A DNA stretch of 64,000 nucleotides from Patescibacteria group bacterium (GTDB taxonomy: Bacteria; Patescibacteriota; Minisyncoccia; UBA6257; GWB1-50-10), in NCBI GenBank assembly GCA_038065455.1, contig JBBTQX010000004.1:5157-69156 (forward strand). The letters are read 5' to 3'. Position 1 is the stretch's first letter; every line of letters starts with the position of its first letter. Shown piece by piece: positions 659-63,572 of this stretch. Below the pieces are notes generated by a model. It ran no database searches and was not told the origin of the DNA. It worked only from the letters and a program-made list of their open reading frames with translations. The position numbers and the translations under genes were made by a program.

Positions 659-2116
659 TTAAGAAAAGCGCGGAAACAAAATCGCGCTTTTTTTATTCGC
701 AAGCACGGCTTTTTTTATCTTCGCGCCCGTATCGGGCATAAAAGGCTCAAGCAAACGGGCGATGAAATACAGTTCCTCCGCGAGTTCGGCAATAATCTTT
801 TTGCCGGCCTCCGGATCGGTTTTCACCAGCCGGAATGGTTCCTTCTCATTTATCTTCTGGTCCATGGCCCGCGCACGCGCTAAAATATAGCCCGTCGCCC
901 GGTTGAATTCGAATTTTCCCATCGCTTCTCTGTATTCAGGGGGCAATTCCGCGGCCTCCGGCCGAACGGCCTTCTCGAGATTATCCTCGGCCAGCTTCAT
1001 CACGCGGGCGGCCAAGTTTCCGATGCCGTTCGCCAAATTGGCATTGTAGGCTTCTTTGAATCTATCCCAAAAAAAATCACTGTCTTCAAACGGGCTCATG
1101 TTATGTGCCAGAAAAAATCGGAGCGCATCCGTTCCGTATTTTTCCACGATTTCAAACGGATTCACCACATTCCCCAAACTCTTGCTCATCTTCTGCCCGT
1201 CGCTTGTGATAAAACCATGGATGATTATCTGCCGGGAAGGTGGCAAGCCGGCGGATAGGAGCATCGCCTGCCACATTGCGGACTGCTGGCGCAGATTGTC
1301 CTTGCCGGCAATCTGGAGCGCGTTCGGTTTTTCTTTCGTACCCCAAAAATCACCGAATTTTTTATCGTCTTCGGGCCAGCCCAAGGTCGAAATATAATTC
1401 GTCAAGGCATCGAACCAAACATACATTATTTGCATATCGTCTCCGGGCACCGGCACGCCCCACGGCATCTTGCTTTTTAGGCGCGAAACGCTGAAATCTT
1501 GAAGCCCGCTCGCAACGAAGTTTCTTATTTCAGTCAGTCGATGGGCCGGTACCACAAAATCCGGATATTTTTCGTAAAGTTCCAAAAGCGGTTTTTGATA
1601 TTTCGAAAAACGGAAGAAGTAATTTTCCTCGTCGATAAGTTCCAATTCAAGATTGGGATGAATCGGACACTTGCCGTCCGCAAGCTCGGAATCGGTTTTT
1701 TCGAGTTCGCAGCCGACGCAATATTTCACCCGGTAATTCTTTTTGTAAATATCGCCGCTGTTCTCGCATCGCCGCCAGAATTCTTGCGCCGCCGCCATAT
1801 GATGCGGATCGGTCGTACGGATAAAATTTGTGAAGTCCAAATTCAAAGATTTTTTCAATTTGCCGAATTTGGCGGCATTCTCGTCCGCATATTTTTGAGT
1901 TTCTTTGCCCTCTTCCAAGGCTTTCCGATAAATTTTTAACCCGTGCTCATCGGTACCCGTATTAAAAACAACTTCTTCGCCGAGAAACTTATGATGACGG
2001 GCAATAATATCCGCCTGGACGACTTCGAGCGCAAAGCCGATATGCGGATCCGCATTCACATAAGGCAGGGTGGTAGTAATATAGAATTTGCCAATTTTAT
2101 TCATGAGCCCGCCCAT
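659..2116 (-). CDS. metG: methionyl-tRNA synthetase (short form)
   Basis: The N-terminus reads YITTTLPYVNADPHIGF (the class I HIGH region) and a KMSKSLGN motif is present. It is 485 aa. Confidence 0.9.
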   Translation of the reverse strand: MGGLMNKIGKFYITTTLPYVNADPHIGFALEVVQADIIARHHKFLGEEVVFNTGTDEHGLKIYRKALEEGKETQKYADENAAKFGKLKKSLNLDFTNFIRTTDPHHMAAAQEFWRRCENSGDIYKKNYRVKYCVGCELEKTDSELADGKCPIHPNLELELIDEENYFFRFSKYQKPLLELYEKYPDFVVPAHRLTEIRNFVASGLQDFSVSRLKSKMPWGVPVPGDDMQIMYVWFDALTNYISTLGWPEDDKKFGDFWGTKEKPNALQIAGKDNLRQQSAMWQAMLLSAGLPPSRQIIIHGFITSDGQKMSKSLGNVVNPFEIVEKYGTDALRFFLAHNMSPFEDSDFFWDRFKEAYNANLANGIGNLAARVMKLAEDNLEKAVRPEAAELPPEYREAMGKFEFNRATGYILARARAMDQKINEKEPFRLVKTDPEAGKKIIAELAEELYFIARLLEPFMPDTGAKIKKAVLANKKSAILFPRFS

Positions 2117-2219
2117 AGTTTCAACTCACGACTGAGGAATTGAACAGAGCATATTATTATCTTTCCTTTTTCATTACTATCCATATATTTATTGAAACTA
2201 TAGGCGGGGTATCAAGCCC

Positions 2220-3233
2220 TTACATATCGAGCACCGGGCGGCGCTCTTTCCTTTCGGTCAGATAATTGAAGATTTCTTGGACTAAGACAGCAAGCGGAAC
2301 ACTTAAGATTATCCCCACAAAACCGGCGATTTGGGCCCCAGCCAAAAGGGAAACAACCACGATTACCGGGTGTACTCTCATACTCTTACCCATTATGATC
2401 GGAATGAGTATATGATTCTCAAATTGCTGGACAACAAAAAAGAATGCTAAAGCATACATACCCAACGCCGTGGAATCGGCGATAGCGATAACGAAGGCAA
2501 TAAGCCCAATCATTATAGGACCGATGATCGGCACCACCTCGAATATGGCGGCGAGAATACCCAAAATCAGAGCGTAGCGAACGCCAATAAACCACATTCC
2601 CAATCCCACCGCGAAACCGACGAATAGACTCAATACCAGCTGAGTGCCGAGCCAGCGGCGCATTTTTATCTTGAATCCGTCGAAAATGGATAGAATCGGC
2701 CGTTCGTAATCATCCGGGATGATAACCCGTATCATTTTTTCCGCTCCGTCTTTTTCAATACTCAAATAAAGTGTGACAAAAATCGAGGAGAAGAAAAGAA
2801 TGGCGTTTCCGAAGAGTTTAGTAATCGCGCCGGGAACGGAATTGCCCGCGCCCGAAATCAAATTCAATATCTGATCCGCTCCGATATTCAAACTTTCCAA
2901 ACTCAAGCTGAAATTGCCGAAACGAAAAACCGAAGTAACGAATTGAGTAAAATGGAAAAGGAAGCCGGCCAGTTCCTCGAAGATAACCGGCGCTATGATG
3001 TATATTCCGCCGGCAAAAACGGAAATAATGGCGAGAATCACGATGATGGAGGCGAAGACCCGACCGATTCTGGCTTTCTCGGCGAGAAAAGTGACGAATG
3101 GGTCTATTCCCATCGAAATCACAACACCCACAAGAAGAACGGTGAAAGCATCCCAGGCGAAATAAACGAGCGCGATGCCCGCCAGAAAGATAAAAATCCT
3201 CCATAAAGTCCCCCAAGCCACTTCCGTTTTCAT
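2220..3233 (-). CDS. AI-2E family transporter (PerM/YhhT-like)
   Basis: This is a polytopic membrane protein with an AI-2E-like core (RRWLGTQLVLSLF..VPIIGPIMIGLIAFVIA). The start is probably the ATG at 3231-3233 (MKTEVAWG), which overlaps the inverted repeat of the element at 3231-3361. Confidence 0.55.
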   Translation of the reverse strand: MKTEVAWGTLWRIFIFLAGIALVYFAWDAFTVLLVGVVISMGIDPFVTFLAEKARIGRVFASIIVILAIISVFAGGIYIIAPVIFEELAGFLFHFTQFVTSVFRFGNFSLSLESLNIGADQILNLISGAGNSVPGAITKLFGNAILFFSSIFVTLYLSIEKDGAEKMIRVIIPDDYERPILSIFDGFKIKMRRWLGTQLVLSLFVGFAVGLGMWFIGVRYALILGILAAIFEVVPIIGPIMIGLIAFVIAIADSTALGMYALAFFFVVQQFENHILIPIIMGKSMRVHPVIVVVSLLAGAQIAGFVGIILSVPLAVLVQEIFNYLTERKERRPVLDM

Positions 3234-3361
3234 CCCGTTAGAAACAGGATACGCCGCTTTGGCGCATCCGTTGGGAATCAAGCGACCTCCGAGATTTGAT
3301 TTTTCTCATAATTACCTTCATTTTTATATCTTTAGAATACACCGGTTTCTAACGGGATTCA
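3231..3361. mobile_element. small element bounded by inverted repeats (copy a)
   Basis: The ends are CATCCCGTTAGAAAC ... GTTTCTAACGGGAT, a 14-bp inverted repeat. Inside, next to the left arm, is the hairpin GGATACGCC..GGCGCATCC, and the rest is AT-rich. The flanking pentamers TTCAT/TTCAT form a possible direct repeat. Confidence 0.6.
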
Positions 3362-4627: not shown

Positions 4628-6026
4628 ATATGTAATTTTTTAGTTCTTTGATTTTTACGCGTTCCTGTTTCATCGTATCGCGGTCCCGCACCGTCACGTC
4701 TTCAGTTTCCAGGCTTTCGAAATCCACCGTGATGCAGTAAGGCGTGCCGGCTTCGTCCTGCGCCCGATAGCGCTTGCCCACATTTCCCCTGTCGTCCCAC
4801 GCCACCGTGTACTCTTTCCTCAATTCTTCGTAGATTGTCCGTGCCAGTTTTACCAGCTCCAGCTTATTAGCCAGAAGCGGAAAAACCGCGGCTTTGTAGG
4901 GCGCTAATTTGGGATGTAATTTCAATACAATCCGTTTTTCCATTTCGTTGTTTTCTTTATTTGAATTTTGGGGCTTGTTTAGGATTTCGGATTTCGGATT
5001 TAGGATTTCTTCCGTATACGCATCCATTAGAAAGAAAAGGGTTGCGCGGTCTACGCCGCCCGAGGTCTCGATGATATAAGGCAGAAAGCGTTCCTTGGAT
5101 TCCTCGTCGAAATAGGTCAGATCCTGCTTGGAAAATTCCTGATGGCGCCGCACATCCCAATCGCCCCGATGGTGGATTCCCTCCATCTCCTTCCAGTCGC
5201 CTTCCGCGTTATACTCGATATCGAATGCCGCCTGGGCGTAGTGCGCCAACTGCTCGTGTTCCTTGAAACGGAGATTTTTCTTCGTCATTCCGAGGGACAG
5301 ATACCACTTCATCCGTTCTTCTTTCCAATATTCCATCCACTTCATCGATTCTTTTTTGTCCGGTTTCGTATAGAACTGCAATTCCATCTGCTCGAATTCA
5401 CGGGAGCGGAAAGTGAGTCCGCCGGGCGTTATCTCGTTCCGGAAGGCCTTGCCGACCTGGACGACGCCGAACGGGATTTTAACGCGGGTGGAATCCAGAA
5501 CATTTTTGAAATTCACGTGCACGCCCTGGGTGATTTCGCCGCGGAGATATGTCTTGAGCTTCTCTCCCTCTATTGAGCCGAGATAGGTCTCGACCATCAG
5601 ATTGAATTGCTTCGGTTCGGTTATTTCTCCGCCGCAATCGGGACATCCGCCAGCCGGCGGATTTTTCTCCAATTGGTCGGCGCGAAAACGATGGTGGCAT
5701 TTTTTGCACTCGACGAGCGGGTCGGAAAAAGAATCCAGATGGCCCGATGCCTCCCAAACCTTCGGATTCATTATTATGGCGGCATCCAGGCCCACGATAT
5801 TCTCGTGCTCCTGCGTCATGTTCTTCCAAAACTCGTTCTTGATATTCCGCTTCAATTCCGCCCCGAGCGGGCCGTAATCCCAAGTACCCGCGAGGCCGCC
5901 GTAGATTTCGGAGCCCGGATAAATAAAGCCGCGCCGCTTGGCCAGAGAAGTAATCTTCTCGAAAATATCCTTCTTTTCTTCCTTCTTCATATATGAACCT
6001 ATTGTAAACCGTAAACAACTCTTCAC
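4605..6026 (-). CDS. glyQS: glycyl-tRNA synthetase, class II (GlyQS type)
   Basis: YGGLAGTWDYGPLG and class II aaRS motifs are present. The protein contains an in-frame heptamer-repeat insertion that encodes EILNPKSEILNKP. Confidence 0.9.
   Translation of the reverse strand: MKSCLRFTIGSYMKKEEKKDIFEKITSLAKRRGFIYPGSEIYGGLAGTWDYGPLGAELKRNIKNEFWKNMTQEHENIVGLDAAIIMNPKVWEASGHLDSFSDPLVECKKCHHRFRADQLEKNPPAGGCPDCGGEITEPKQFNLMVETYLGSIEGEKLKTYLRGEITQGVHVNFKNVLDSTRVKIPFGVVQVGKAFRNEITPGGLTFRSREFEQMELQFYTKPDKKESMKWMEYWKEERMKWYLSLGMTKKNLRFKEHEQLAHYAQAAFDIEYNAEGDWKEMEGIHHRGDWDVRRHQEFSKQDLTYFDEESKERFLPYIIETSGGVDRATLFFLMDAYTEEILNPKSEILNKPQNSNKENNEMEKRIVLKLHPKLAPYKAAVFPLLANKLELVKLARTIYEELRKEYTVAWDDRGNVGKRYRAQDEAGTPYCITVDFESLETEDVTVRDRDTMKQERVKIKELKNYIYEKYQKN
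4974..5009. repeat. tandem heptanucleotide repeat (GGATTTC/GGATTTA, 4 units) inside the glyQS coding sequence
   Basis: The + strand reads aggatttcggatttcggatttaggattt. On the coding strand this is GAAATCC units. Confidence 0.85.
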
Positions 6027-11444: not shown

Positions 11445-13709
11445 ATGAACGCTGATTTTTCAAAGCCCTATGACCCGAAGATAACCGAAGAAAAAATATA
11501 CCAGCTTTGGCTTGATTCCGGCTATTTCAATCCGGACAACCTGCCTGCGCAGGCAGGCCTGCCTGTCGCAAAAATCAAAAATTCAAAAATTAAAAATTAC
11601 GTGGTATATATGCCCCTCCCGAACGTGACGGGCACGCTCCATATGGGCCACGCCTTGAACAACACCATTCAGGATATTCTCATCCGTTATCATCGGATGA
11701 AGGGATATAAAACGCTCTGGCTCCCCGGCACAGACCACGCCGGCATCGCCACGCAGTACGTGGTGGAAAAAGACCTGCGAAAACAAAATATTTCCCGTTT
11801 CGAACTCGGCCGGGAAAAATTCGTGGAGAAGGTCTGGGAATGGAAGAAAAAATATGGCGACGCGATCTTAAACCAGCTCAAAAAAATTGGCATCTCGGCC
11901 GATTGGTCCCGCACGCGCTTCACGATGGACGAAGCCTATAGCCAAGATGTTTTAAAAGTCTTCGTTCATTACTACGAGAAGGGCTGGCTTTATCGCGGAC
12001 TCCGCACCGTGAACTGGTGCCCGAAGGATGGCACAAGCCTCTCCGAGCTGGAACTGGAATACGAGGATACCGAAACCAAACTCTGGTATATCAACTATCC
12101 GCTTACGGATAGTAAATCCGAAATCCGAAATCCGAAATCCGAATTCATAACAGTGGCGACAACGAGACCCGAAACGATGCTGGGCGATACCGCGATTGCC
12201 GTGAATCCCGCCGACAAGAGATACAAGCATCTTATCGGAAAGACCGTCGTCCTTCCGATTCAAAATCGAGAGATACCGATTGTGGGCGATATCGCGATAG
12301 ACCCTAAGTTCGGCACGGGCGCGGTCAAGGTGACGCCGGCCCACGATATTCTCGATTTCGAAATCGGCCAACGGCACAAACTGGAAACGATTCAGGTAAT
12401 AGACGAACGGGCCAAAATGACGGTGATAGCCGGAAAGTATGCCGGACTAAAAGCCGTTGAAGCCCGCGAAAAAATCGTGAACGACCTCAAAGAAATGGGG
12501 CTTCTGGTAAAAGAAGAAAAATATCAAACCCGCGTCGCGAAGTGCTACCGTTGCGGCACGATTATTGAGCCTATCCCATCCAATCAATGGTTTTTGAAGA
12601 TGGATAAATTGGGAGCGATGGCGAAGCAGGCCGTGAAATCCAAAAAAGTGAGAATTCAGCCGAAAAATTTCGAGAAAACCTACTTGAATTGGCTTGAAAA
12701 CGTCCGCGACTGGTCGGTCTCCCGCCAAATTTGGTGGGGACACCGGTTGCCGGTTTGGTTTCACGAGCCGAAGTGCGTTCCCAAAAAGGGCCGCGAAAAG
12801 GATTCCGCCAAGTGCGAGGAGATGGTGGTTTCGCTCACCGAACCGGAGTGTAAATATTGCGAAGGGAAATATATCCAATCGGAAGACGTGCTTGATACCT
12901 GGTTTTCCTCCGCTCTTTGGCCATTTGCCGGGCTTTCTAAAGAAGATGCAGAAAAATATTATCCCGGAAACGTCCTCGTAACCGCCCGCGACATCATTAA
13001 TTTATGGGTCGCGCGGATGATCTTCTCCGGCTTAGAATTCAAGAAAAAGGTTCCCTTCACTGATGTCTTCATTAACGGCACCATCCTTGCCAAGGACGGC
13101 CGGCGAATGTCCAAAAGCCTCGGCACTGGCATTGACCCGCTGAATTACATCGGACTGCATGGAGCGGACGCGACACGTTTCGCTATCATCTGGCAGGCCT
13201 CCGGCCAGGATATCCGCTGGGACGAGGCGGCCGTCATGGCCGGCCGGAAATTCTGCAATAAAATCTGGAACGCATCCCGCTTTGTTATAGAACAAAGCGG
13301 AAATCCGAAATCCGAAATCCGAAATCCGAAACCTCGAACGGCAGCGGATAAAAAGATTCTTAAGAAGCTCGCGGCGGTGAAAAAACAAACCGGAAAAAAC
13401 ATAGAAAAATTCGAGTTCTCGAAAGCGCTCCACGATATTTACGATTTCTTCTGGCATGAGTTCTGCGACATTTACATCGAGGAGACAAAAAAAATTCACC
13501 CCGTTAGAAATAGCCCGCCCCAAGGCCCGGAGGGCGCGCGCCGCGCGGGCGAGATTTCTAACGGGGCAGGAGGAAATTCGGCAGAAATATTGATGTATGT
13601 ATTAAAAGAATCCCTTAAAATGCTCCATCCATTCATGCCATTCATCACGGAAGCGATCTATGGAAACATGGCCGAAAAAAATGGGCTTTTAATGGTTGAA
13701 AAATGGTAG
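11445..13709 (+). CDS. valS: valyl-tRNA synthetase (C-terminally short)
   Basis: PNVTGTLHMGHAL is the HIGH region, DGRRMSKSLG is the KMSKS motif, and LHPFMPFITE is present. The protein is 754 aa. It contains two GAAATCC repeat insertions and a 69-bp element inserted in frame. Confidence 0.9.
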   Translation: MNADFSKPYDPKITEEKIYQLWLDSGYFNPDNLPAQAGLPVAKIKNSKIKNYVVYMPLPNVTGTLHMGHALNNTIQDILIRYHRMKGYKTLWLPGTDHAGIATQYVVEKDLRKQNISRFELGREKFVEKVWEWKKKYGDAILNQLKKIGISADWSRTRFTMDEAYSQDVLKVFVHYYEKGWLYRGLRTVNWCPKDGTSLSELELEYEDTETKLWYINYPLTDSKSEIRNPKSEFITVATTRPETMLGDTAIAVNPADKRYKHLIGKTVVLPIQNREIPIVGDIAIDPKFGTGAVKVTPAHDILDFEIGQRHKLETIQVIDERAKMTVIAGKYAGLKAVEAREKIVNDLKEMGLLVKEEKYQTRVAKCYRCGTIIEPIPSNQWFLKMDKLGAMAKQAVKSKKVRIQPKNFEKTYLNWLENVRDWSVSRQIWWGHRLPVWFHEPKCVPKKGREKDSAKCEEMVVSLTEPECKYCEGKYIQSEDVLDTWFSSALWPFAGLSKEDAEKYYPGNVLVTARDIINLWVARMIFSGLEFKKKVPFTDVFINGTILAKDGRRMSKSLGTGIDPLNYIGLHGADATRFAIIWQASGQDIRWDEAAVMAGRKFCNKIWNASRFVIEQSGNPKSEIRNPKPRTAADKKILKKLAAVKKQTGKNIEKFEFSKALHDIYDFFWHEFCDIYIEETKKIHPVRNSPPQGPEGARRAGEISNGAGGNSAEILMYVLKESLKMLHPFMPFITEAIYGNMAEKNGLLMVEKW
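11541..11603. repeat. GC palindrome plus AAAAATN heptamer run in the valS N-terminal region
   Basis: The GC palindrome is cctgcctgcgcaggcaggcctgcctg. It is followed by aaaaatcaaaaattcaaaaattaaaaatt, which encodes AKIKNSKIKN. Confidence 0.6.
12114..12141. repeat. tandem heptamer AAATCCG x4 in valS
   Basis: The sequence is aaatccgaaatccgaaatccgaaatccg. It encodes KSEIRNPKSE. Confidence 0.9.
13301..13328. repeat. tandem heptamer AAATCCG x4 in valS
   Basis: The sequence is aaatccgaaatccgaaatccgaaatccg. It encodes NPKSEIRNPK. Confidence 0.9.
13498..13566. mobile_element. small element bounded by inverted repeats (copy d), inserted in frame in valS
   Basis: The ends are CCCCGTTAGAAAT ... ATTTCTAACGGGG, a 13-bp inverted repeat. 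The core is GC-rich. At 69 bp it adds 23 codons (PVRNSPPQGPEGARRAGEISNGA). Confidence 0.6.
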
Positions 13710-20958: not shown

Positions 20959-21336
20959 TTAAATGTTTTCGTAGTGGCGGATTTCGAAAGCATCGGCTTC
21001 GGCAAACCCATTACTCTTCTTAACAAGAGCCACGAGATCCAGACGCCAGCCCCTTTTGTCGCTTATGAGCTCTTCGTGGGAACCCGCGTATATTTCCGCC
21101 GTCCGGCGGAATTTTTTCATCTTAGCTCCGGACATCTGGTCTTCCGGTTTCAATATCCCCGGCCTCATAGTCTTAACTTCCACAAAAACCAGGGTCTTAT
21201 CCGGTGCTATTACCACAATATCCAACTCGCCCCATTTCTCCCGCTTATTTCGTTCAATTACCCCATAACCCTTTCTTTTCAGATATTCGGCCGCAAAATC
21301 CTCCCCCTCCCGCCCCAATTCAGATTTTTGAGTCAT
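20959..21336 (-). CDS. YraN-family (UPF0102) putative endonuclease
   Basis: GREGEDFAAEYLKRKGYGVIERNKREKWGELDIVV...LVFVEVKTMR matches the YraN signature. The start is taken at the internal Met (MTQKS). Confidence 0.65.
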   Translation of the reverse strand: MTQKSELGREGEDFAAEYLKRKGYGVIERNKREKWGELDIVVIAPDKTLVFVEVKTMRPGILKPEDQMSGAKMKKFRRTAEIYAGSHEELISDKRGWRLDLVALVKKSNGFAEADAFEIRHYENI

Positions 21337-21772
21337 AGTAAGCAAATTTCCCGAATTTCCCCTGTTTGTGCAAATTGAATATTCTTCTATATGGATATGG
21401 GACGTTGGTATTCCCAATCTTCTCTATCCATTCCTGAAATTGAACTCCTTTGTAACCACGGAGTTTTCCATAAAAGAACGGAACGACCACATTTATAAGC
21501 GACAAATAATCCCTAACTATTAATGTCGCCATTTTACCCCTATTAACCCCGTCTTTTCTGTATGGACCACTAACATAAATACTATTACTGTTTATTTTTG
21601 GCAGCTTCATTGATGTTCTCATGAGCCTCAAAAGCTCTTCATCTCGTTGATGCATAGAAATAATAAAAGTTGGAACTTTTAGTTTTTCTTCTCTTTTTAC
21701 TCTTGTATCAAAGGTGAAGCAACCCTCTCCTTCTACTAATCCTCTGATATATTCATCAGAAAGTAGTTCCAT
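21320..21772 (-). CDS. free-standing single-motif LAGLIDADG homing endonuclease
   Basis: LSDEYIRGLVEGEGCF is the LAGLIDADG dodecapeptide. The protein is 150 aa. The island is AT-rich. A TGATATAAT -10 lies directly upstream. Confidence 0.75.
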   Translation of the reverse strand: MELLSDEYIRGLVEGEGCFTFDTRVKREEKLKVPTFIISMHQRDEELLRLMRTSMKLPKINSNSIYVSGPYRKDGVNRGKMATLIVRDYLSLINVVVPFFYGKLRGYKGVQFQEWIEKIGNTNVPYPYRRIFNLHKQGKFGKFAYYDSKI

Positions 21773-23282: not shown

Positions 23283-23368
23283 GGGCTGGTTAACCAGGCA
23301 GTAGAAACTCGATTAGGGTATGGATTCCGGCCGCGCCGCAATCGAGTTTTCACTACCTGGTTAATTGA
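23283..23368. repeat. inverted pair of the CGAGTTTCTACTACCTGGTTAA repeat, with a CTGGTTAACCAG palindrome
   Basis: The reverse copy is at 23283-23311 (ctggttaaccaggcagtagaaactcgatt). The forward copy is at 23340-23368 (aatcgagttttcactacctggttaattg). A third copy is at 33112-33140. Confidence 0.6.
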
Positions 23369-31106: not shown

Positions 31107-32951
31107 TTAGGCCTTCAATCCTACTTGCTTCAGATTAAAGCTTTTTATGATTTTGTAAAACTCTTCCTGTTCCAAGGTCTCTTTTTCCATGAGCGCCTTA
31201 GCGATGGTATCCAGAACGGTGCGGTGGGCCGTCACGATTTTTTTGGCGATGTTTAAGGTCTTCTCGATTATCTTATTCACCTCGGCATCTATTTCAGTAC
31301 CGACGGTTTCGGAATAATCTTTTTCAGTCGTCATCTCGCGGCCCAAAAAAATCAGTTCTTGGGTCTTGCCAAAGGTGCGCGGCCCGAGTTTTTCACTCAT
31401 GCCATATCTGGTCACCATCCGATGGGCATCGTCCGTCGCATTCTTGATATCACTCGAGGAGCCGGTCGTAATGTCTTTGAAAACCAATTGCTCCGCCACA
31501 TATCCGCCGAAGGATACGGCGAGGTCGGCCAAAAACTGCGTCTTGGTGCGGAGATGGGTTTCTTCAAGCGGCAATTTTATCGTATAACCGCCGGCCATTC
31601 CTCGGCTGATAATGGAAACCTTGTGTATCGGGTCGGCATCTTTCAAAGCCGCCGCGACAAGCGCGTGGCCGGCCTCGTGATAGGCGGTGATTTTCTTTTC
31701 GTTGTCGGAGATGACGCGGCTTCGGCGCGCGGGTCCGAGCATCACTTTCTCGATGGAACTCAAAAAATCTTCCTGGTCGACAATTTTCTTATTCTCCCGG
31801 GCGGCTTTGATGGCCGCTTCGTTTATGAGATTCGCCAAGTCCGCTCCGGCGAAGCCCGGCGTGCGCACCGCCACCACTTTCAAATCGACATTTTTCGCGA
31901 GCGGCTTTCCGATGGCGTGGATTTTCAAAATCTCTTCCCGGTCTTTGATGTCGGGACTGTCCAGAACCACGCGCCGATCGAATCGGCCGGGTCTCAAAAG
32001 CGCGGCGTCCAAAACATCCGGGCGATTTGTTGCCGCCATCACGATAACATTGGAGTTCCGTTCAAAGCCATCCATTTCAACGAGAATTTGATTCAAGGTC
32101 TGTTCGCGCTCGTCATGGCCGCCGCCCATCCCGGTGCCGCGCTCGCGTCCCACCGCATCAATCTCATCTATGAAAATAATGGAAGGCGCGGCTTTCTTGG
32201 CTGTCATAAACAAATCCCGCACGCGGCTTGCACCCACGCCCACGAACATTTCGACGAATTCCGAAGCGGAGATATGAAAAAAAGGAACATTGCTCTCGCC
32301 CGCCACCGCCCGGGCCAAAAGGGTTTTGCCCGTGCCCGGCAGACCCATCAGAAGCACGCCGCGGGGAATACGCGCGCCGATATCCAGAAATTTCTTGGAA
32401 TTTTTCAAAAAATCCACTACTTCGCGCAATTCTTCTTTGGCTTCTTTCAATCCCGCCACATCCTTGAAGGTCACCTTGTCCTTACTTCGGGAAAAGAGCT
32501 TGATGTTCATTTTGCCGAATGAAAAGGCCTGATTCGCTCCGGTCTTCGCTTGGCGGAATATCCACCAAAAAATCAAAACCATAACGATTATGGGCAGGAT
32601 AATCGGAACAAGAATACCCATCCAATATTTGAAACCACTCTCGTCTTGGACGCTCAGTTGCAGTTTTATCAAAGCTTCTTTCGTTACGCCGTAACCGGTG
32701 AGCGTTTCGATTATTCCCGTCTCGTTCTCCTTGCGCGAATGGGCGTTCGTCCCATCGTTCAATTTTATTTCCAAATCATTGCCATTCACATTCACGCTCT
32801 TCACCTCGCCTGCGATTATTTTTTGGGCCAGAGCGTCAATTGTGAGCTTCTGCGAATCCGTACCGGCCGGCGCCGAAAAAAGCGAAAAGATAAAAGCGAC
32901 GAAAAATAAAAGGATTATGGCGCCCGTGAAATTTTTGGTAAACTTTTTCAT
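31107..32951 (-). CDS. ftsH: ATP-dependent zinc metalloprotease FtsH
   Basis: The Walker A motif is GLPGTGKT. The second region of homology is present. HEAGHAL is the zinc-binding site. The N-terminus has TM segments. The ATG overlaps the inverted repeat of element copy b. Confidence 0.95.
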
Positions 32952-33064
32952 CCCGTTAGAAACAGGATGCGCTTTTTAAGCGTATCCGTATTATTAAACT
33001 TATTTATTTCTTTATTTTTCATGGAATATTCTATATTATACTTAGCAAATTTCTAACGGGATGA
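32949..33064. mobile_element. small element bounded by inverted repeats (copy b)
   Basis: The ends are CATCCCGTTAGAAAC ... ATTTCTAACGGGATG. The internal hairpin is GGATGCGC..GCGTATCC and the core is AT-rich. The left repeat arm contains the ftsH start codon. Confidence 0.6.
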
Positions 33065-33125
33065 ATATTTTATATCATAACAAAAAAACAAACCGCCCTC
33101 AAATGAGAGCGGGTTCGAGTTTCTA

Positions 33126-34217
33126 CTACCTGGTTAATTTCAAAACAATTCTCTTTTCCTGCGTTTTCACTTCGTGGACTGTGAAATCGTAGGCTTGGCC
33201 GATTGTCAGTTCTTTTCTCATTTCCGGCAAGCCGCCGAAATCCGTCACATGCACCTGACCCTGCAAACCGTGCTCCAGATTCACAACCGCGCCGAAAGGA
33301 TTGAAGACGTAGACCGTGCCCTTTACCGCATCGCTTTCCTTGAAAAGCTCTTCGACTTTGGTCCAGGGATCTTCTTTCAGAACCTTGAGCGAAAGCGAGA
33401 TACGGCCGTCCTTGATATCCACTATCTTGGCCTTAATCACTTCGTCTATTTTGACAAATTCCTTGGGGTTGTCGATTACGCGATGGTCAATTTCGGAAAC
33501 ATGGATGAATCCTTCAAGGGCCGGATTGTCGGTAAATCGGATAAAAATGCCGAAGTCCGCCACACCCGAGACCACTCCCTCGATATCCTGGCCAACCGAA
33601 TAGTTCTTGGCGAGCTCCTTGGCGCTCAATTCTTGGGCCGCCCGTTCGGAAACGATTAATTTGTTGGTGCGCGAGTTCGCATCGATTATTTTCACTTCGA
33701 ATTCCTGGCCCACAAAAGCCTGAAGCGCTTCGAGAATCTTGCCCTTTTCCTCCGCGCCGACTTTCGGATAGTGCTCGTTCGCCAATTGGGAAACTGGCAG
33801 GAAAGCTCCCAAGCCCCTGAGCTCGGCCATCAGCCCGCCTTTATTGAAACCGGTTATCTTCACTTTAATGGGCTCCTCTTTGCCCATCAATTCCTGAACA
33901 TCGGTCCAGGCTTTTTGTTTATCGGCTTGCGAAAGCGAGAGTTCTATTAATCCTTCTTCATTATCTATATTGACTACTTTGGCGTGCACCGGCTCGCCCA
34001 CATTCAAACTCTTCACAATTTCCTTCGCATTCTGAAGTTCGCCGCGATAAACGGCGCCCGTGCCGAAGCGGCCCAAATCTACCGTGAGCATTTTGGAACT
34101 TTTCTCCATTACTTTCCCTTCCACGAGATCGCCCGTCTTCAGGGTCGGCAAAAAATTCGGGTCCGTTTTCAAAAACTGGCCGATGAGGGTGTTCGCGCTC
34201 GGTTTCACTTTATCCAT
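33126..34217 (-). CDS. rpsA: 30S ribosomal protein S1-like (four S1 domains)
   Basis: Four tandem S1 / OB-fold modules are present. It is 363 aa, a short form of rpsA. Confidence 0.7.
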   Translation of the reverse strand: MDKVKPSANTLIGQFLKTDPNFLPTLKTGDLVEGKVMEKSSKMLTVDLGRFGTGAVYRGELQNAKEIVKSLNVGEPVHAKVVNIDNEEGLIELSLSQADKQKAWTDVQELMGKEEPIKVKITGFNKGGLMAELRGLGAFLPVSQLANEHYPKVGAEEKGKILEALQAFVGQEFEVKIIDANSRTNKLIVSERAAQELSAKELAKNYSVGQDIEGVVSGVADFGIFIRFTDNPALEGFIHVSEIDHRVIDNPKEFVKIDEVIKAKIVDIKDGRISLSLKVLKEDPWTKVEELFKESDAVKGTVYVFNPFGAVVNLEHGLQGQVHVTDFGGLPEMRKELTIGQAYDFTVHEVKTQEKRIVLKLTR

Positions 34218-34253
34218 ACTTGACGAAGATTATCATAAAAGCGCGTTGAAAAT

Positions 34254-34331
34254 CAATCCCGTTAGAAATCACGCCCGCGCGCAAGCGCGCCCCGCAGGGG
34301 CCTGCGGGGCGGGCTATTTCTAACGGGATCA
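34254..34331. mobile_element. small element bounded by inverted repeats (copy c), with a GC-rich hairpin core
   Basis: The ends are ATCCCGTTAGAAAT ... ATTTCTAACGGGAT, a 14-bp perfect inverted repeat. The core is GCCCGCCCCGCAGG-GGCC-CCTGCGGGGCGGGC. The flanks are ATCAAT and ATCAAC. Confidence 0.6.
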
Positions 34332-34387
34332 ACCCCTAAATTCATTGCTGAACATCAGAAACAATGATAAAATAGGATAAATTCAGT

Positions 34388-35335: not shown

Positions 35336-38300
35336 ATGAATAAAGAAAAAGAAATACCGGAAGAAAGAAGGGACAAGATTCAGGCGCAGGAGATTACCTC
35401 CGAGCTCCGCGATTCCTATCTGGACTACGCGATGTCCGTCATCGTCTCGCGGGCTTTGCCCGACGTGCGCGACGGCCTGAAGCCGGTTCAGCGGAGAATT
35501 CTCTGGGCGATGTGGGACGACAGCCTGACGCACAGCGCCAAGTTCCGGAAATCGGCCAATGTCGTGGGTGCGGTCTTAGGGCGCTATCATCCGCACGGCG
35601 ACATCGCACTTTACGACGCGATGGCCCGAATGGCCCAGGATTTTTCCCTGCGCTATCCGCTAGTTGACGGGCAAGGCAATTGGGGATCGATCGACGGGGA
35701 TTCTCCCGCAGCAATGCGTTACTGCGTAACCGGAAACACTTTAATCATTACCGAAAAAGGACTGGTTCCGATTGAAAGTTTAGGAGATTCAAAAAATCTG
35801 GACGGCGAAGAAAAAAATATTCAAATAAAAATACTTTCTAAAAATAGGGGGGTTAACAAAGCCGTGAAATGGTTTGACAGCGGCAGACATCCAACGATTA
35901 AAGTGGAAACGAATCACGGATTTTCCTTGACGGGCAGTGAAAATCATCCGATTCTCACTTGGATAAAAAATCCCGCCACTGGCGCTCCTTCTTTCTCGTG
36001 GAAACTTTTAAACGATGTAAAAGAAGGAGATTTTGCCGTTATTGAAAGAACTTCCGATTTGTTATGGCCGGAAAAAAATATCAACCTGGCTTCTTATTGG
36101 CCAAATGAAAATAGGCGCTGGGATAAAAAAATCCTACCCAGAGAGTTGGATGAAAATTTAGCGTTCGTGCTTGGGGCGTTAATAGCGGAGGGAACAATCA
36201 AAGAAAATGAGATTGAATTCTGTAACAGCGATCCCGAATTCATAGATGAATTTAAGGCGAAATGGCGGAATGTTTTCCCCGATTGCCGCCTCCATCAGTT
36301 TTACCGCAAGCCGAATTCTTTTGGCAAAAAACCTTACCAAACGCTGGAGATACACTCCCGGCAAGTGGCGGCTCTATTGAGAAATGTCGGTCTTTTACCC
36401 GTGAAATCCGCCAAAAAAACGATTCCTAATCTGGTTCTTCAATCACCAAAGTCAGTTGTCGCTTCTTTCTTAAGGGCCTATTTCGAAGGAGACGGCAGTA
36501 TCAGCTGGAGCGGGAGAATGAACGAACTTAGCGCGGTTTCCACAAGCGAGAAACTTATTAAAGAAATTCAAATAGCACTTTTGAGATTTGGGATAGTATC
36601 CGCGAAAAGATTTGATAGATTAAAAAGCAATCACAAGCTCTATATTCGCGGCCTGAAAAACTACGCGCTTTTCAAAAAGCAGGTAGATTTTGCTGTTTCG
36701 GTCAAAAAAACAAAGTTGAACGGCTTATTGGAAAAAACCGAAAGAGATTCTTCATTGACGGACTTCGTGCCATTTTTATCAGAATTCATAAGGAAAAATA
36801 CGGAACGAGATTATAAAAAAGAAAGAATAACCAACCATTACAATTTTGACCGTTATTCAAACCTAAAAAACAGAGAAGCGGGCATATTAACTGCGGTTCG
36901 CTCCGAAATAAAAACCAAAACCGCCGGAGTCCTGGAATCCCTACTTTCAAACAATTACCTTTTTGACCCGATTGTAAAAGTGGAAAAAGGCGGAATTGAA
37001 AAAGTTTATTCGGTAAAAGTCGCCAGTGATTGCCACTCTTTCGTTGCGAACGGTTTTATAAATCACAACACGGAGGCGCGCCTTTCGCGGATAGCGGAGG
37101 AACTTCTCACGGATATCGAAAAAGAAACGGTGGATTGGCAGCCGAACTACGACGCCACCCGCGAAGAACCGAAATTCCTGCCGGCCCGGCTTCCGAATCT
37201 GCTTTTGAACGGCACGGTCGGCATCGCGGTCGGTATGGCGACATCCATTCCGCCCCATAATCTGGGCGAGATTGCGGACGCGACCGCTCATCTAATAGAG
37301 CACCCCGACGCCGATATAAAAGAATTGATGCAATTTATGCCCGGGCCGGACTTTCCGACCGGCGGAATCATCTACGACAAAAAAGCGCTCGAGGAAGCCT
37401 ACACGACCGGCAAGGGTTCGGTCACTATCCGCGCCAAAGCTGAGATAGAAGAAAGAACCCATTCAAAACACACCGGTCAGGCGTCATCGGGCAGCTTCCA
37501 GATAATCATCTCCGAAATTCCGTATCAGGTGAATAAATCCGATCTCATCACCAAGATGGCCGAACTCGTGACGGACAAGAAAATCGAGGGTATCCGCGAC
37601 ATTCGCGACGAATCCGACCGTGAAGGCCTCCGCATCGTCGTGGAATTAAAGAACGACTCCTCGCCCCAGAAAATACTGAATCAGCTCTATGAATATACCG
37701 AACTCCAGAAGAATTTTTATTACAACGTTCTCGCGCTCGTAAACGGCCTTCAGTCGGAGATACTATCGCTCAAAGACGTGCTCTCGGAATATCTGGAACA
37801 CCGGAAAATAGTAATTCGCCGCCGAACGGAATTCGACCTCAAAAAAGCCCAGGACCGCGCCCATATTCTCGAAGGCCTCGTTAAGGCACTCGATAACATA
37901 GACAAAATAATCTCGACCATCAAGAAATCGAGAGACCGCGAAACGGCGAAACAGAGTCTGGTCAAGAATTTCAAACTCTCACCTCTCCAAGCCGACGCCA
38001 TTTTGGAAATGAAACTTCAAAGTCTTGCCGCCCTCGAACGGGAAAGACTGGAGAACGAGCTTAAGGAAAAAAGAAAGCTTATCGCTGAGCTCGAGTTGAT
38101 ATTAAAACAGCCGAAGAGGATATTAGGCATCATTAAAGATGATCTTCTGGATCTCAAAAAAATCTTCGCTGACCCGCGCCGGACGAAAATCATCGCGACC
38201 GGACTTAAAGAATTCAAGGAAGAGGATCTAATTCCTCAAGAAGAGGCTATTATCACCTTCACTCAAGACGGCTATGTGAAAAGGATGCCGCCGACGACCT

Positions 38301-39172
38301 TCCGCGTGCAGAAGCGCGGCGGCAAGGGTCTTATCGGTTCCGATCTCAAGGATGAAGACTTGATCAACCAACTCCTTTCGGCCGACACGCACGATAACAT
38401 TATCTTCTTCACGACCGGCGGAAAAGCCTTTCAAACAAAAGTTTACGAAATACCGGTGGCCGCTCGCACCGCGAAAGGCAAATCAATCCATAACTTCTTG
38501 GAGATTCCGCCGAACGAAAAAGTGAGTGCGATTGTCACCTATCCGCAGGCGCACGCCGACGGCAAGCACTTTATGGTAATGGTGACGAAAAGCGGCGTGG
38601 TGAAGAAAACCCCATTGGCGGATTTCGAAAATGTCCGCCGGAGCGGCATCATCGCCATCAAATTGAGCGCGGGCGACATTCTGGGCTGGATAAAGCTTTC
38701 CGAAGGCGATGATCAGATAATCCTCGTAAGCGCTCTCGGACAGGCTATCCGTTTCAAGGAAAAAGACATTCGGGGTATGGGTCGCGCGGCCGCGGGCGTA
38801 CGCGCCATCCATCTCAAGAAAAGCGACAGCGTGAGCGGGCTTGATATAATAAAGAAAGAGAATTCGGACAAATCAAGAATGGTGGCGGTGATGGCGAATG
38901 GCTTCGCTAAACAGACGGCGCTCAAAGAGTATAAAATCCAGCGCCGGGGCGGCTCGGGAACAAAGACGGCCAAGATTACGGATAAGACGGGGCCGGTCAT
39001 CGGAGCGCATATCGTGGACGATAAAGTAGAGGAGGTGTTGGCTTTTTCGACTAAGGGCCAAGCCATCCGGACACCGCTCAAAGATATCAGAGTATTGAGC
39101 CGCGCCACGCAAGGGGTGAAGATTATGAACCTGGAAAAGGGGGATAATCTGGTGGGAATAGTGTGCTTATAG
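35336..39172 (+). CDS. gyrA: DNA gyrase subunit A containing an intein
   Basis: The N-extein reads ..[22 protein letters not shown] 449-aa intein follows. The C-extein reads [11 protein letters not shown].., then the GyrA core and the beta-pinwheel C-terminal domain. The extein is 829 aa. Confidence 0.9.
35723..37069 (+). other. GyrA intein with LAGLIDADG homing endonuclease domain, inserted after the catalytic Tyr
   Basis: It begins CVTGNTLI (Cys1). [14 protein letters not shown] and [12 protein letters not shown] are the LAGLIDADG blocks. It ends ..VANGFINHN, followed by Thr at +1. It sits at the same site as the Mxe GyrA intein. Confidence 0.85.
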
Positions 39173-45385: not shown

Positions 45386-45469
45386 GGGCAGGTGGCGAAA
45401 TTGGCAGACGCACCAACTTTAGGAGTTGGCGATCGCAAGGTCTTGTGGGTTCAAGTCCCACCCTGCCCA
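45386..45469 (+). tRNA. tRNA-Leu (anticodon UAG), type II with long variable arm
   Basis: The acceptor stem is GGGCAGG/CCTGCCC. The anticodon arm is CCAAC-TTTAGGA-GTTGG. The long variable arm is CGATCGCAAGGTCTT. The T-arm is GTGGG-TTCAAGT-CCCAC. Confidence 0.85.
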
Positions 45470-45496
45470 CTAGATAATTATTAATTCTCCGTATTG

Positions 45497-47225: not shown

Positions 47226-47437
47226 GCAAAAGGTTTGGGGGTATCCCTAGTTCCCTCAAAAAACACGCTATCAAATTCCCCAGTGCCGATAACCTCCGGT
47301 TATCGAGCATCCACGATTGCTTTCGCAATCGGGACGTGGAATTTGCGCTCGCTCTCGGCCTCGCTCTTCCGCTTCGCGGAAACCATGCCCACTCGGCCTG
47401 CGAGACGGTTTTCTTGAGGAAATTAGGGATACCCCAT
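47226..47437. ncRNA. candidate structured RNA: long closing stem enclosing a three-way junction (possible S15-binding leader or 6S-like RNA). The strand is unknown.
   Basis: GGGGTATCCCTAGTTCCCTCAA at 47226-47247 pairs with TTGAGGAAATTAGGGATACCCC at 47416-47437. Inside are the nested helix CAAATTCC/GGAATTTG and the hairpins CGATAACC-tcc-GGTTATCG and CGATTGC-ttt-GCAATCG. The region is GC-rich. It lies directly upstream of rpsO. Confidence 0.3.
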
Positions 47438-58981: not shown

Positions 58982-58996
58982 AATAGGAGTAATAAA

Positions 58997-60985: not shown

Positions 60986-60994
60986 TAATACAAA

Positions 60995-61843: not shown

Positions 61844-61853
61844 TTTTATAACC

Positions 61854-62336: not shown

Positions 62337-62395
62337 GCAATTTTTAATTTTTGAATTTTTAAATAAATTATAATGTCTGAATTTTTAAACACTTT

Positions 62396-62740: not shown

Positions 62741-62803
62741 AAACTAGAATTTAGACATTATTTAAAAATTACAAAAATTACAAAATTATAATACAATAAG
62801 GAT

Positions 62804-63439: not shown

Positions 63440-63440
63440 A

Positions 63441-63572
63441 ATGAATCCCGTTAGAGACATAAGCCTTATGAAAAATATGATTACCAAACAATCAATGAAA
63501 TCCAATAAAGTCGAGTTAACTAATCCATCACGGATGCGCTTTTTGAGCGCATCCTGTCTCTAACGGGATGAA
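63441..63572. mobile_element. small element bounded by inverted repeats (copy e), lying between the two halves of the VirB4-like gene
   Basis: The ends are ATCCCGTTAGAGAC ... GTCTCTAACGGGAT. The hairpin GGATGCGC-tttttga-GCGCATCC sits next to the right arm. ATGAAT is directly repeated on both flanks. The right flank supplies the ATG of the downstream ORF. Confidence 0.6.

What the first reader, a model, noticed from the sequence alone, without database searches (positions are those of the whole stretch)
3231..3361. Family of five small elements with inverted-repeat ends (ATCCCGTTAGAAA ... TTTCTAACGGGAT)
There are five copies in 64 kb: 3231-3361, 13498-13566, 32949-33064, 34254-34331 and 63441-63572. 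Their ends form a 13-14 bp terminal inverted repeat, and the copy at 63441-63572 has G in place of A (AGAGAC). Three copies carry the same internal hairpin (GGATGCGC..GCGCATCC) next to one arm, followed by an AT-rich core. Two shorter copies have a GC-rich hairpin core instead. In three copies the flanking 5-6-mers repeat directly (TTCAT/TTCAT, ATCAAT/ATCAAC, ATGAAT/ATGAAT), which fits a target-site duplication. The elements sit at gene boundaries, and their CATCCC/GGGATG ends overlap start codons of ftsH, a transporter gene and the second half of a VirB4-like gene. This looks like an active or recently active non-autonomous mobile element family. I could not match it to a family I know.
Basis: seen in the sequence. 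Interest (0 to 1): 0.8.

Follow-up and report, generated by a model that had tools for sequence, protein, structure and literature searches.

The report
Small hairpin-ended jumping DNA elements
The five repeats are real copies of a small non-coding mobile DNA element that duplicates four bases on insertion, is still present or absent between near-identical groundwater strains, and has the same ends in many bacterial phyla, although the enzyme that moves it was not found.

Summary

- **Copies:** the window holds five elements of 68-125 bp.
- **Ends:** each has a 13-bp terminal inverted repeat, Y-CCCGTTAGA-R-A-N. Differences between copies are compensated in the other arm.
- **Target-site duplication:** it is 4 bp (TNNA), not 5-6 bp.
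- **Empty site:** a Hainich groundwater contig 99.6-99.8% identical on both flanks has one TGAA in an ATGA stop/start overlap. The window has TGAA-[125 bp]-TGAA there.
- **Other sites:** a second site is empty in the same strain. A third carries a different palindromic element at the same TTGA. The copy inside ValRS is in frame (72 nt), fixed in the population, and absent from orthologues of 77% identity or less.
- **Distribution:** exact arm pairs occur in at least 120 genome stretches, spanning many Patescibacteria classes, Omnitrophota, Planctomycetota, Deltaproteobacteria and others. Central flank bases match in 89 of 131 copies (18.5 expected).
- **Context:** about 65% of copies abut a start or stop codon. 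The terminal purine plus the duplicated TG rebuilds ATG or GTG.
- **Not found:** no transposase, no autonomous copy, no Rfam family and no literature match.

Verdict: a new MITE-like family, with piggyBac/IS1380-like end features offered only as a lead.

The parts
3233..3357 (-). Copy 1, long type (125 bp). On the transcribed (-) strand it reads: distal arm, A-rich core, hairpin (3247-3269), proximal arm. It lies between the M16 peptidase stop and the start of the AI-2E-family (PerM-like) transporter gene.
   Evidence: fold -45.6 kcal/mol, z -5.4. The site is empty in L135/L139/L140.
3229..3232 (.). Target-site duplication of copy 1, left copy on the + strand (TTCA, which is TGAA on the - strand). 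With element base 3233 it forms the transporter gene's ATG.
3358..3361 (.). Target-site duplication of copy 1, right copy (TTCA/TGAA). It holds the TGA stop of the M16 peptidase gene.
13499..13566 (+). Copy 2, short G+C-rich type (68 bp), in frame inside the valyl-tRNA synthetase gene (11445-13709). It is translated as ..HPVRNSPPQGPEGARRAGEISNGA...
   Evidence: It is present in all population contigs and absent from orthologues of 77% identity or less.
32951..33061 (-). Copy 3, long type (111 bp), hairpin at 32965-32987, lying between the S1-domain gene and ftsH. Its terminal base supplies the A of the ftsH ATG.
   Evidence: It is absent in L125/L130/L132. Its flanks TTCA and TGAA do not match.
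34257..34328 (-). Copy 4, short G+C-rich type (72 bp), in the divergent spacer upstream of the S1-domain gene. The duplication TCAA lies at 34253-34256 and 34329-34332.
   Evidence: z -7.7. The Hain_H51 strain has a different 72-bp palindromic element at the same TTGA.
63446..63568 (+). Copy 5, long type (123 bp), hairpin at 63532-63554, with the AGAGA/TCTCT arm variant. It lies between the TraC-like ORF and the VirB4-like ORF. The duplication TGAA lies at 63442-63445 and 63569-63572.
   Evidence: Several assemblies break inside it.

Best explanation
These are copies of a miniature, non-coding DNA transposon family (MITE-like).

Shown:
- An element is Y-CCCGTTAGA-R-A-N ... N-T-Y-TCTAACGGG-R, with anything from about 5 to more than 250 bp between the arms.
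- It sits in a TNNA tetranucleotide, most often TGAA/TTCA or TAAA/TTTA, and that tetranucleotide is duplicated on both sides.
- Sites are polymorphic between near-identical strains, and element-bearing segments are shuffled between haplotypes by homologous recombination.

Inferred:
- A trans-acting transposase binds the 13-bp ends and makes cuts staggered by 4 bp. Its type is probably DDE, and its identity is unknown.
- The preferred target is R|TNNA|Y, and the element itself starts with Y and ends with R, so both junctions rebuild R-TNNA-Y. An insertion into ATGAA or TGAA/TAAA therefore leaves a stop codon on one side and a fresh ATG or GTG on the other.
- That lets copies survive exactly at gene junctions of compact genomes. 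Copies of suitable length and frame survive as in-frame peptide inserts.
- Compensated changes in the arms and in an arm-adjacent hairpin indicate that the element must also fold as a hairpin in single-stranded DNA or RNA at some stage.
For: - **Non-random, paired arms:**
- **Clean empty versus filled alleles:** the flanks are 99.6-99.8% identical. The empty allele reads ..GATA-TGAA-AACGG and the filled one ..AGTA-TGAA-[T..123 nt..A]-TGAA-AACGG. The recombination breakpoint lies about 105-135 nt from the element.
- **Other window sites:** a second site lacks the element, and a third is occupied by another element family with the same TTGA flanks.
- **Flank statistics on 131 copies from 120 genome stretches plus the window:** the central two flank bases are identical in 89, against a shuffle mean of 18.5 and a maximum of 31. 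Variant flanks CTCA and TGAG repeat directly. Positions -1/+1 are complementary in 126 of 131, arm position 10 in 129 of 131, and position 12 in 112 of 131 (50 expected).
- **Signs of recent copying:** near-identical copies within genomes (L026, DX4.bin27, L120) and nested mini-elements with their own flank repeats (L015, L104).
- **In-frame inserts:** ValRS; the RmlB-like, Fpg-like (MPELPEVE N-terminus), GatB-like (read by eye) and other ORFs.
- **Gene-boundary census:** of 113 copies, 50 abut an ORF start, 33 abut an ORF stop, and 8 lie inside ORFs.
- **No coding capacity:** elements are 68-125 bp here.
Against: - No transposase gene and no long copy bounded by these ends was found in the window, in about 0.8 Mb of genome loci, or in a further 0.88 Mb that included the metagenome loci.
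- Copy 3 has non-matching flanks, and 11-13 nt next to it differ from the empty allele, so that site is not a simple insertion.
- Copy 2 has lost its right-hand repeat.
- Strict complementarity of the two arms is not required by a classical transposase that binds each end separately.
- The direction of each polymorphism (insertion or precise excision) is not known.
- The genome scan demanded exact arms, so their conservation across phyla is partly built into the search.
Confidence: 0.85

Rival explanations
1. The elements arose by transposition but are kept for a role in RNA. Read with the operon, they would supply a promoter, a ribosome landing region or a processing/stability hairpin for the downstream gene. 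This is compatible with the main explanation.
For: - In long copies the arm-adjacent hairpin is present in 25 of 72, against 1.0 expected from shuffled interiors, with 14 different compensated stems.
- Orientation is biased. The hairpin-proximal end abuts an ORF start in 11 copies and the distal end in 3 (p = 0.057). The distal end abuts an ORF stop in 8 copies and the proximal end in none.
- The core is A-rich on the transcribed strand.
- The distal arm's TAGARA followed by a -10-like hexamer 16-18 nt downstream occurs in 9 of 26 copies, against 3.3 +/- 1.6 in shuffles.
- ftsH lost its GAAGG ribosome-binding site in the filled allele yet remains intact.
Against: - No conserved interior sequence or fixed promoter position exists.
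- Sites are dispensable: empty alleles occur in the same species.
- Copies also sit inside ORFs and in a Mu-like prophage.
- The orientation bias could come from an asymmetric target preference.
- The promoter matches are only 9 of 12 positions.
Confidence: 0.15
2. REPIN-like elements: inverted doublets that fold into a hairpin in single-stranded DNA and are moved by a single-copy HUH (RAYT/IS200-like) enzyme.
For: - The arms are perfectly complementary with compensated changes.
- The arm-adjacent hairpin covaries.
- No linked transposase was found.
- The elements are dispersed at gene ends.
Against: - A clean 4-bp duplication of a single TGAA is seen at the empty/filled site and statistically in 131 copies. 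From established knowledge, HUH single-strand transposition makes no duplication.
- No conserved GTAG-type foot is present.
- No RAYT-like gene lies in the window.
Confidence: 0.06
3. A conserved cis-regulatory hairpin, intrinsic terminator or protein-binding palindrome that belongs to the genes it flanks and is not mobile.
For: - The folds are strong (z -3.1 to -7.7).
- The elements lie at gene boundaries.
- One terminator-like call overlaps a hairpin.
Against: - Presence and absence vary between 99.7%-identical haplotypes.
- Flanks are duplicated.
- Flanking genes are unrelated across 120 loci.
- Copies occur inside coding sequence.
- No U-tract follows the outer stem.
- No Rfam match appears even at E <= 10.
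Confidence: 0.03
4. Invertible promoter segments (invertons) or integron attC-type recombination sites bounded by inverted repeats.
For: - Inverted repeats bound an A/T-rich segment upstream of genes.
- The arms contain GTTAGAA/TTCTAAC, which from memory resembles the attC core sites GTTRRRY/RYYYAAC.
Against: - All population contigs that carry a given copy show it in one orientation.
- The core-like motifs are in the opposite order to attC.
- Copies are 1-30 kb apart between housekeeping genes, not in cassette arrays.
- No integron integrase was found among the window ORFs scanned; the only tyrosine recombinase there is Xer-like.
- Flank duplications are not produced by site-specific recombination.
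Confidence: 0.01

Closest known systems
Bacterial MITEs such as Correia/NEMIS elements of Neisseria
   Same: Both are about 100-150 bp and non-coding, with terminal inverted repeats and a flank duplication. Both have many dispersed copies at gene ends, fold into long hairpins when transcribed, and may affect neighbouring gene expression. The Correia properties are from my own knowledge.
   Different: Correia elements duplicate TA, have 26-bp ends and are confined to one genus. This family duplicates TNNA (4 bp), has 13-bp ends with an unrelated interior, and is found with identical ends in many phyla.
Rickettsia palindromic elements (RPE)
   Same: Both are palindromic repeats that persist in frame inside housekeeping protein genes as extra peptide segments. 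Here the hosts are ValRS and the RmlB-like, Fpg-like, GatB-like and other ORFs.
   Different: No sequence relation was tested or seen. Here most copies are intergenic, at start and stop codons, and a defined 4-bp duplication and empty sites are documented.
piggyBac superfamily and the bacterial IS1380 family (recalled from memory, a lead only)
   Same: Both make a 4-bp duplication of a T..A tetranucleotide; the related second family in this window is flanked by TTAA. Element tips begin CC(C). A TAGAAA motif lies near the tip, as in my recollection of the piggyBac end CCCTAGAAAG.
   Different: No transposase of that or any other family was found. The target is degenerate TNNA rather than strict TTAA. 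About half of the copies start with T rather than C. The one IS1380 member I could check in a paper (IS1247) makes a 5-bp duplication.
REPINs (REP doublets mobilised by RAYT)
   Same: Both are hairpin-forming inverted doublets, abundant at gene ends, with no transposase next to the copies and with complementarity kept between the arms.
   Different: REPINs make no flank duplication and are lineage-specific. Here the duplication is demonstrated.
bcr1 repeat of the Bacillus cereus group (from my own knowledge)
   Same: Both are small mobile repeats with a short A/T-rich flank duplication and a conserved secondary structure with compensatory changes.
   Different: bcr1 has a conserved core of about 155 bp and a TTTAT duplication, and occurs in one species group. 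In this family only the 13-bp ends are shared.

Membership tests
MITE (non-autonomous DNA transposon) | Short, with no coding capacity | tested here: met
   The elements are 68-125 bp in the window and 27 to about 380 bp elsewhere.
MITE (non-autonomous DNA transposon) | Terminal inverted repeats | tested here: met
   The inverted repeat is 13 bp. Positions -1/+1, 10 and 12 are complementary in 126, 129 and 112 of 131 copies.
MITE (non-autonomous DNA transposon) | Target-site duplication of fixed length | tested here: met
   The duplication is 4 bp (TNNA). The central bases are identical in 89 of 131 copies against 18.5 expected. A single TGAA in the empty allele is duplicated in the filled allele.
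MITE (non-autonomous DNA transposon) | Presence/absence polymorphism at orthologous sites | tested here: met
   Copy 1 and copy 3 sites are empty in Hain_H51 contigs. The ValRS copy is absent from orthologues of 77% identity or less.
MITE (non-autonomous DNA transposon) | A cognate autonomous element with the same ends that encodes a transposase | tested here: inconclusive
   None was seen in the window or in the roughly 1.7 Mb of fetched loci. Whole genomes could not be searched.
piggyBac / IS1380-derived element | 4-bp duplication at TTAA-like sites and CC(C) termini | tested here: inconclusive
   TNNA is duplicated. TTAA itself is rare in this family (3 of 131) but flanks the second family at 23290-23364. 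The tips are CCCCG or TCCCG.
piggyBac / IS1380-derived element | A DDE transposase of that superfamily acting on these ends | not tested
REPIN / REP-RAYT | No flank duplication; a conserved tetranucleotide at the hairpin foot; an associated RAYT gene | tested here: not met
   A flank duplication is present. No recurrent neighbouring protein family was found.
Integron attC site | RYYYAAC ... GTTRRRY in that order, at cassette 3' ends in arrays beside intI | tested here: not met
   The motifs are in the opposite order. Copies are dispersed among housekeeping genes. No integron integrase was found among the window ORFs scanned.
Intrinsic terminator / cis-regulatory RNA family | A fixed position relative to orthologous genes; a U-tract or a curated family match | tested here: not met
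   The sites are polymorphic. No Rfam match overlaps any copy at the gathering threshold or at E <= 10.
Inverton | Both orientations of the segment present in a population | tested here: not met
   Every contig carrying copies 1-5 shows the same orientation.

The most novel reading that the evidence does not exclude
These elements belong to a very broad superfamily of orphan hairpin MITEs that target TNNA.

- Family 1 has invariant 13-bp ends in at least ten phyla. A second family, CCNGG-YAGTRRAAACTCGA, follows the same 4-bp rule.
- They would be moved by a conserved enzyme that is not yet recognised. It could be a single-copy, vertically inherited or domesticated transposase of the piggyBac/IS1380 type.
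- Their ends would have evolved to rebuild start and stop codons. This would let them colonise operon junctions and even protein interiors in the most streamlined bacterial genomes.
- They might also pass between ultrasmall episymbionts (Patescibacteria, Omnitrophota) and the larger bacteria that share their habitats.
Probability: 0.25. Interest if true: 0.75.

Novelty: new member of a known kind. Interest (0 to 1): 0.5.

Why it matters
Patescibacteria genomes are about 1 Mb, gene-dense and usually described as poor in mobile DNA. Here an element family shows strain-level presence/absence polymorphism in a natural groundwater population, indicating current or recent activity. It sits at about one copy per 13 kb, exactly on start and stop codons and inside essential proteins.

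- **Markers:** the polymorphic sites are ready-made markers for strain tracking and for following recombination.
- **Codon-rebuilding junctions:** they offer one explanation for how a transposon can live in a genome with almost no intergenic space.
- **Identical ends across distant phyla:** this points to an unidentified, conserved transposition enzyme worth finding.
- **Annotation:** the elements break assemblies, add peptide inserts to aminoacyl-tRNA synthetases and other enzymes, and replace ribosome-binding sites.

Tried and rejected
- **Rfam:** searched at gathering thresholds and at E <= 10. Nothing overlaps any copy.
- **Literature:** searched for the arm sequences of both families and for MITEs in Patescibacteria/CPR. 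Only unrelated primer hits and papers about arthropod mites came back.
- **Autonomous copy:** I looked for arm pairs 140-6000 bp apart, for any inverted repeat of at least 14-15 bp spanning 600-4000 bp in all fetched loci, and for protein families recurring near the elements. Only housekeeping genes appeared (PilB-type ATPase, SIMPL, RmlB, glycosyltransferase).
- **L020:** a 320-bp inverted repeat containing the element flanks a secreted protein gene, not a transposase.
- **Viral contigs:** only 3 hits. Two lie in a Mu-like prophage whose MuA transposase does not fit a 4-bp duplication.
- **Pfam on window ORFs:** a Xer-like recombinase, a LAGLIDADG ORF and a UPF0102 nuclease, but no transposase.
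- **Protein-database census of the in-frame peptide:** failed. The first query was too short, and the second found no shared words.
- **IS1380 end sequences:** I could not get them from papers. One paper gave sizes only, and another is not held.
- **Conserved upstream ORF through the element:** rejected. By inspection of the type-H element lengths listed, they are not enriched for the required frame.
- **Alternative duplication models:** a 6-bp model (outer positions match only 69 and 55 of 131) and a 2-bp model (CTCA and TGAG variants repeat directly) were both rejected.
Full report
**Observation**

The motif ATCCCGTTAGAAA, allowing up to 2 mismatches, occurs 13 times in the window. The expectation is 3.1, and none of 100 shuffles reaches 13. 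Ten of these matches form five inverted pairs. A pattern requiring both arms 42-102 nt apart matches only those five places, with zero expected. No further convincing pair exists. The match at 61671 is a lone arm with one mismatch inside an ORF.

- Copies 1, 3 and 5 are long (111-125 bp). They have a GGATGCGC..GCGCATCC hairpin beside one arm and an A/T-rich core.
- Copies 2 and 4 are short (68 and 72 bp) and share a G+C-rich core.
- Copy 5 carries the A-to-G change in both arms.

All five fold into a long outer stem. Energies lie 3.1 to 7.7 standard deviations below shuffles.

**Anatomy**

I scanned one genome per species of GTDB with CCCGTTAGARA...TYTCTAACGGG.
- The inverted repeat is 13 bp: Y-CCCGTTAGA-R-A-N.
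- Every variable position is compensated in the other arm. Positions -1/+1 are complementary in 126 of 131 copies (64 expected), position 10 in 129 of 131, and position 12 in 112 of 131 (50 expected), with all four bases used.
- Interiors are unrelated between genomes and can be as short as about 5 nt. A 27-bp element is nested in another copy in L015, with its own ACGAG flanks.
- One recurrent long subtype (114-123 bp) has arm - YA - GGnnnnn - loop - nnnnnCC - GTR. It occurs in 25 of 72 long copies, against 1.0 expected from shuffled interiors (maximum 5 of 200). There are 14 different outer stems, and 103 of 104 cells are paired.

**Duplication and empty sites**

The flanks are direct repeats of four bases at -5..-2 and +2..+5, with consensus TNNA.
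- The two central bases are identical in 89 of 131 copies. The shuffle mean is 18.5, and the maximum of 2000 shuffles is 31.
- Rarer flanks such as CTCA or TGAG also repeat directly. The next positions outward match only weakly (69 and 55 of 131).
- The element therefore includes the Y and R bases, and the duplication is 4 bp.

This was confirmed directly at copy 1. The AI-2E-family (PerM-like) transporter protein next to copy 1 is identical in 14 contigs from the Hainich groundwater wells.
- In three of these contigs (L135, L139, L140), the M16 peptidase stop and the transporter start overlap as ..GATATGAAAACGG.
- In the others, and in the window, the sequence is ..GTA-TGAA-[T CCCG..CGGG A]-TGAA-AACGG.
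- L135 is 99.6% and 99.8% identical to the window on the two flanks.
- The window haplotype switches from L135-like to the filled L136-like type about 105-135 nt from the element. The element-bearing segment has therefore been moved between haplotypes by homologous recombination.

The other window sites also vary or show history.
- **Copy 3 site.** Three H51 contigs lack the element. However, 11-13 nt next to it also differ, including the GAAGG ribosome-binding site of ftsH, and the flanks of copy 3 (TTCA, TGAA) do not match. That site has a more complex history.
- **Copy 4 site.** The H51 strain carries a different 72-bp palindromic element with ends CCGGGTAGTGAAAACTCGA, between the same TTGA repeats.
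- **Copy 2.** It is fixed in all population contigs, including the H51 contig that is empty at site 1. It is also present in orthologues 96-97% identical. The 77%-identical orthologue and all more distant ones lack it. Element plus duplication is 72 nt, which is 24 codons.

**Distribution**

The 120 genome stretches come from many Patescibacteria classes. These include Nomura-, Kerfeld-, Uhr-, Lloyd-, Moran-, Jorgensen-, Wolfe-, Kaiser-, Komeili-, Berkel- and Levybacteria, Saccharibacteria and Kazan. They also come from Omnitrophota, Planctomycetota/Pirellulales, Deltaproteobacteria/Syntrophaceae/Geobacteraceae, Thermodesulfovibrionales, WOR-3, Stahl- and Edwardsbacteria, and one Gammaproteobacteria MAG.
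- Some hits lie on contigs of 0.3-1.2 Mb, which argues against mis-binning.
- Lineage-specific interiors exist. One example is the TTCCAGCGGGGCATTAAACCCCG.. core shared by four deltaproteobacterial MAGs.
- Near-identical copies occur within genomes (L026, DX4.bin27, L120).
- Essentially all hits are metagenome-assembled or otherwise uncultured genomes (119 of the 120 record titles are labelled MAG).
- Only three hits occur in 2.9 million viral contigs, two of them in a Mu-like prophage.
- The scan required exact arms, so it shows breadth but not the degree of conservation.

**Context and consequences**

I classified 113 copies that had enough flank.
- 50 have an ORF of at least 80 codons starting within a few bases of a border.
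- 33 have an ORF ending at a border.
- 18 have both.
- 8 lie inside an ORF that reads through them.

The junction logic follows from the sequence. The preferred target is R-TNNA-Y, and the element begins with Y and ends with R, so both junctions again read R-TNNA-Y. With TGAA, the left copy keeps the TGA stop. The right copy, preceded by the terminal A or G of the element, makes ATG or GTG. This is what is seen at copies 1, 3 and 5 and in many loci (..CGGGatgaa..CGGGgtgaa).

Read-through copies use two stop-free frames, PVRN..ISNG or PLE..LTG. They occur in an RmlB-like dehydratase, an Fpg-like ORF (a nested pair; MPELPEVE N-terminus), a protein I read by eye as GatB-like that carries a close relative of the ValRS insert, and others.

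**What moves it**

I found no answer.
- Pfam scans of selected window ORFs, those flanking the copies and those in the low-G+C regions, found a Xer-like tyrosine recombinase, a free LAGLIDADG ORF, a UPF0102 nuclease and type IV secretion genes. They found no transposase.
- No protein family recurs next to the elements.
- No longer unit bounded by these ends exists in about 1.7 Mb of fetched loci.

The 4-bp stagger points to a DDE-type enzyme acting in trans. From memory, a T..A tetranucleotide duplication, tips starting CC(C) and a nearby TAGAAA recall piggyBac (TTAA | CCCTAGAAAG) and its bacterial relatives, the IS1380 family. I could not test this, so it is a lead only.

A second family supports a shared mechanism. 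Window 23294-23360 is flanked by TTAA, and a solo arm overlaps the S1 stop codon. A metagenome scan gave at least 119 stretches and 72 distinct copies. Their ends are CCNGG-YAGTRRAAACTCGA, their 4-bp flanks are identical in 41 of 72 (4.3 expected, maximum 14), and their arms are always asymmetric, GA on one side and AG on the other.

**Alternatives**

- **Fixed regulatory hairpin or terminator.** This is excluded by the empty sites, the flank duplications, the unrelated neighbouring genes, the coding-sequence copies and the lack of a U-tract. Rfam has nothing, even at E <= 10.
- **Invertons.** These are not supported, because every contig shows the same orientation.
- **attC sites.** These are not supported. 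The core-like motifs are in the wrong order, and there are no cassette arrays and no integron integrase among the window ORFs scanned.
- **REPIN-like single-strand mechanism.** This would explain the arm complementarity and the lack of a linked transposase, but it does not produce duplications.

**Possible RNA-level role (inference)**

- In the hairpin subtype, the hairpin-proximal end abuts an ORF start in 11 copies and the distal end in 3 (p = 0.057). The distal end abuts an upstream ORF stop in 8 copies and the proximal end in none.
- The core is A-rich on the transcribed strand, without a conserved box.
- The distal arm's TAGARA followed by a -10-like hexamer 16-18 nt downstream is found in 9 of 26 copies, against 3.3 +/- 1.6 in shuffles.

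These are hints of selection on orientation, or of an asymmetric target preference. They do not demonstrate function.

**Verdict**

The kind of element, a MITE, is well known. This family matched no Rfam family and no paper in the searched library. It is unusual in three ways: the breadth of hosts sharing the same ends, its codon-rebuilding junctions, and the absence of any visible autonomous partner.

Noticed in passing
window 23290-23364; solo arm at about 33113-33133; L125/L130/L132 upstream of the S1 gene; L151-L269: A second palindromic element family has ends CCNGG-YAGTRRAAACTCGA, with arms always asymmetric (GA/AG). The window copy is flanked by TTAA. In the H51 strain it occupies the same TTGA site where the window has copy 4. 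It is abundant in groundwater metagenomes, and its 4-bp flanks are identical in 41 of 72 copies.
   Followed up: partly
window 12115-12135, 13302-13322, 4983-4996 (- strand): Runs of the heptamer AAATCCG are read in frame as KSEIRNP inside ValRS and another gene. The first ValRS run lies within a region where the 96-97%-identical orthologues P0001/P0002 are 13 residues shorter, so it may vary in length.
   Followed up: partly
window 2108-2208 and 47238-47435: Two further elements bounded by inverted repeats (CCCGCCCATAGTTTCAA.. and GGGGTATCCCTAGTTCCCTC..). The second lies next to the start of a Xer-like tyrosine recombinase gene (46320-47210, - strand). No flank duplication was evident.
   Followed up: no
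window 35336-39172 and 21323-21772: The 1278-residue GyrA-like ORF at 35336-39172 matches, by size and position next to the Lactamase_B_3 gene, the GyrA that carries an intein with a LAGLIDADG domain in the population contigs (Pfam list). A separate free-standing LAGLIDADG ORF sits in a low-G+C stretch of the window.
   Followed up: no
window 56463-64000: A type IV secretion-like cluster (TrbL_3, PrgI, TraC-like and VirB4-like ORFs) has a 23S-rRNA intervening-sequence-protein gene (62396-62740) inserted between PrgI and the TraC-like ORF. Several assemblies end inside copy 5.
   Followed up: no
window 45647-46231: An ORF with a Cas2-like/PaaX central domain lies next to tRNA-Leu (45386-45470) and the Xer-like recombinase, in a low-G+C region. 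This may be an integrated element.
   Followed up: no
L149/L150 (IMGVR_UViG_3300038429_000794): Two copies of the family lie inside a Mu-like transposable prophage that encodes a MuA-type transposase and a MuB/TniB-like ATPase.
   Followed up: partly
L020 2046-2369 and 4832-5155: In MAG DX4.bin27 the element is embedded in a 320-bp inverted repeat that flanks a 686-residue secreted protein gene. The same extended repeat recurs on other contigs of that MAG.
   Followed up: partly
L276 and L272 (population contigs of the ValRS 3' end): One contig has one A fewer in the A-run just before the in-frame element. In another, ValRS is called as two ORFs. These may be frameshift variants or assembly errors next to the element.
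   Followed up: no
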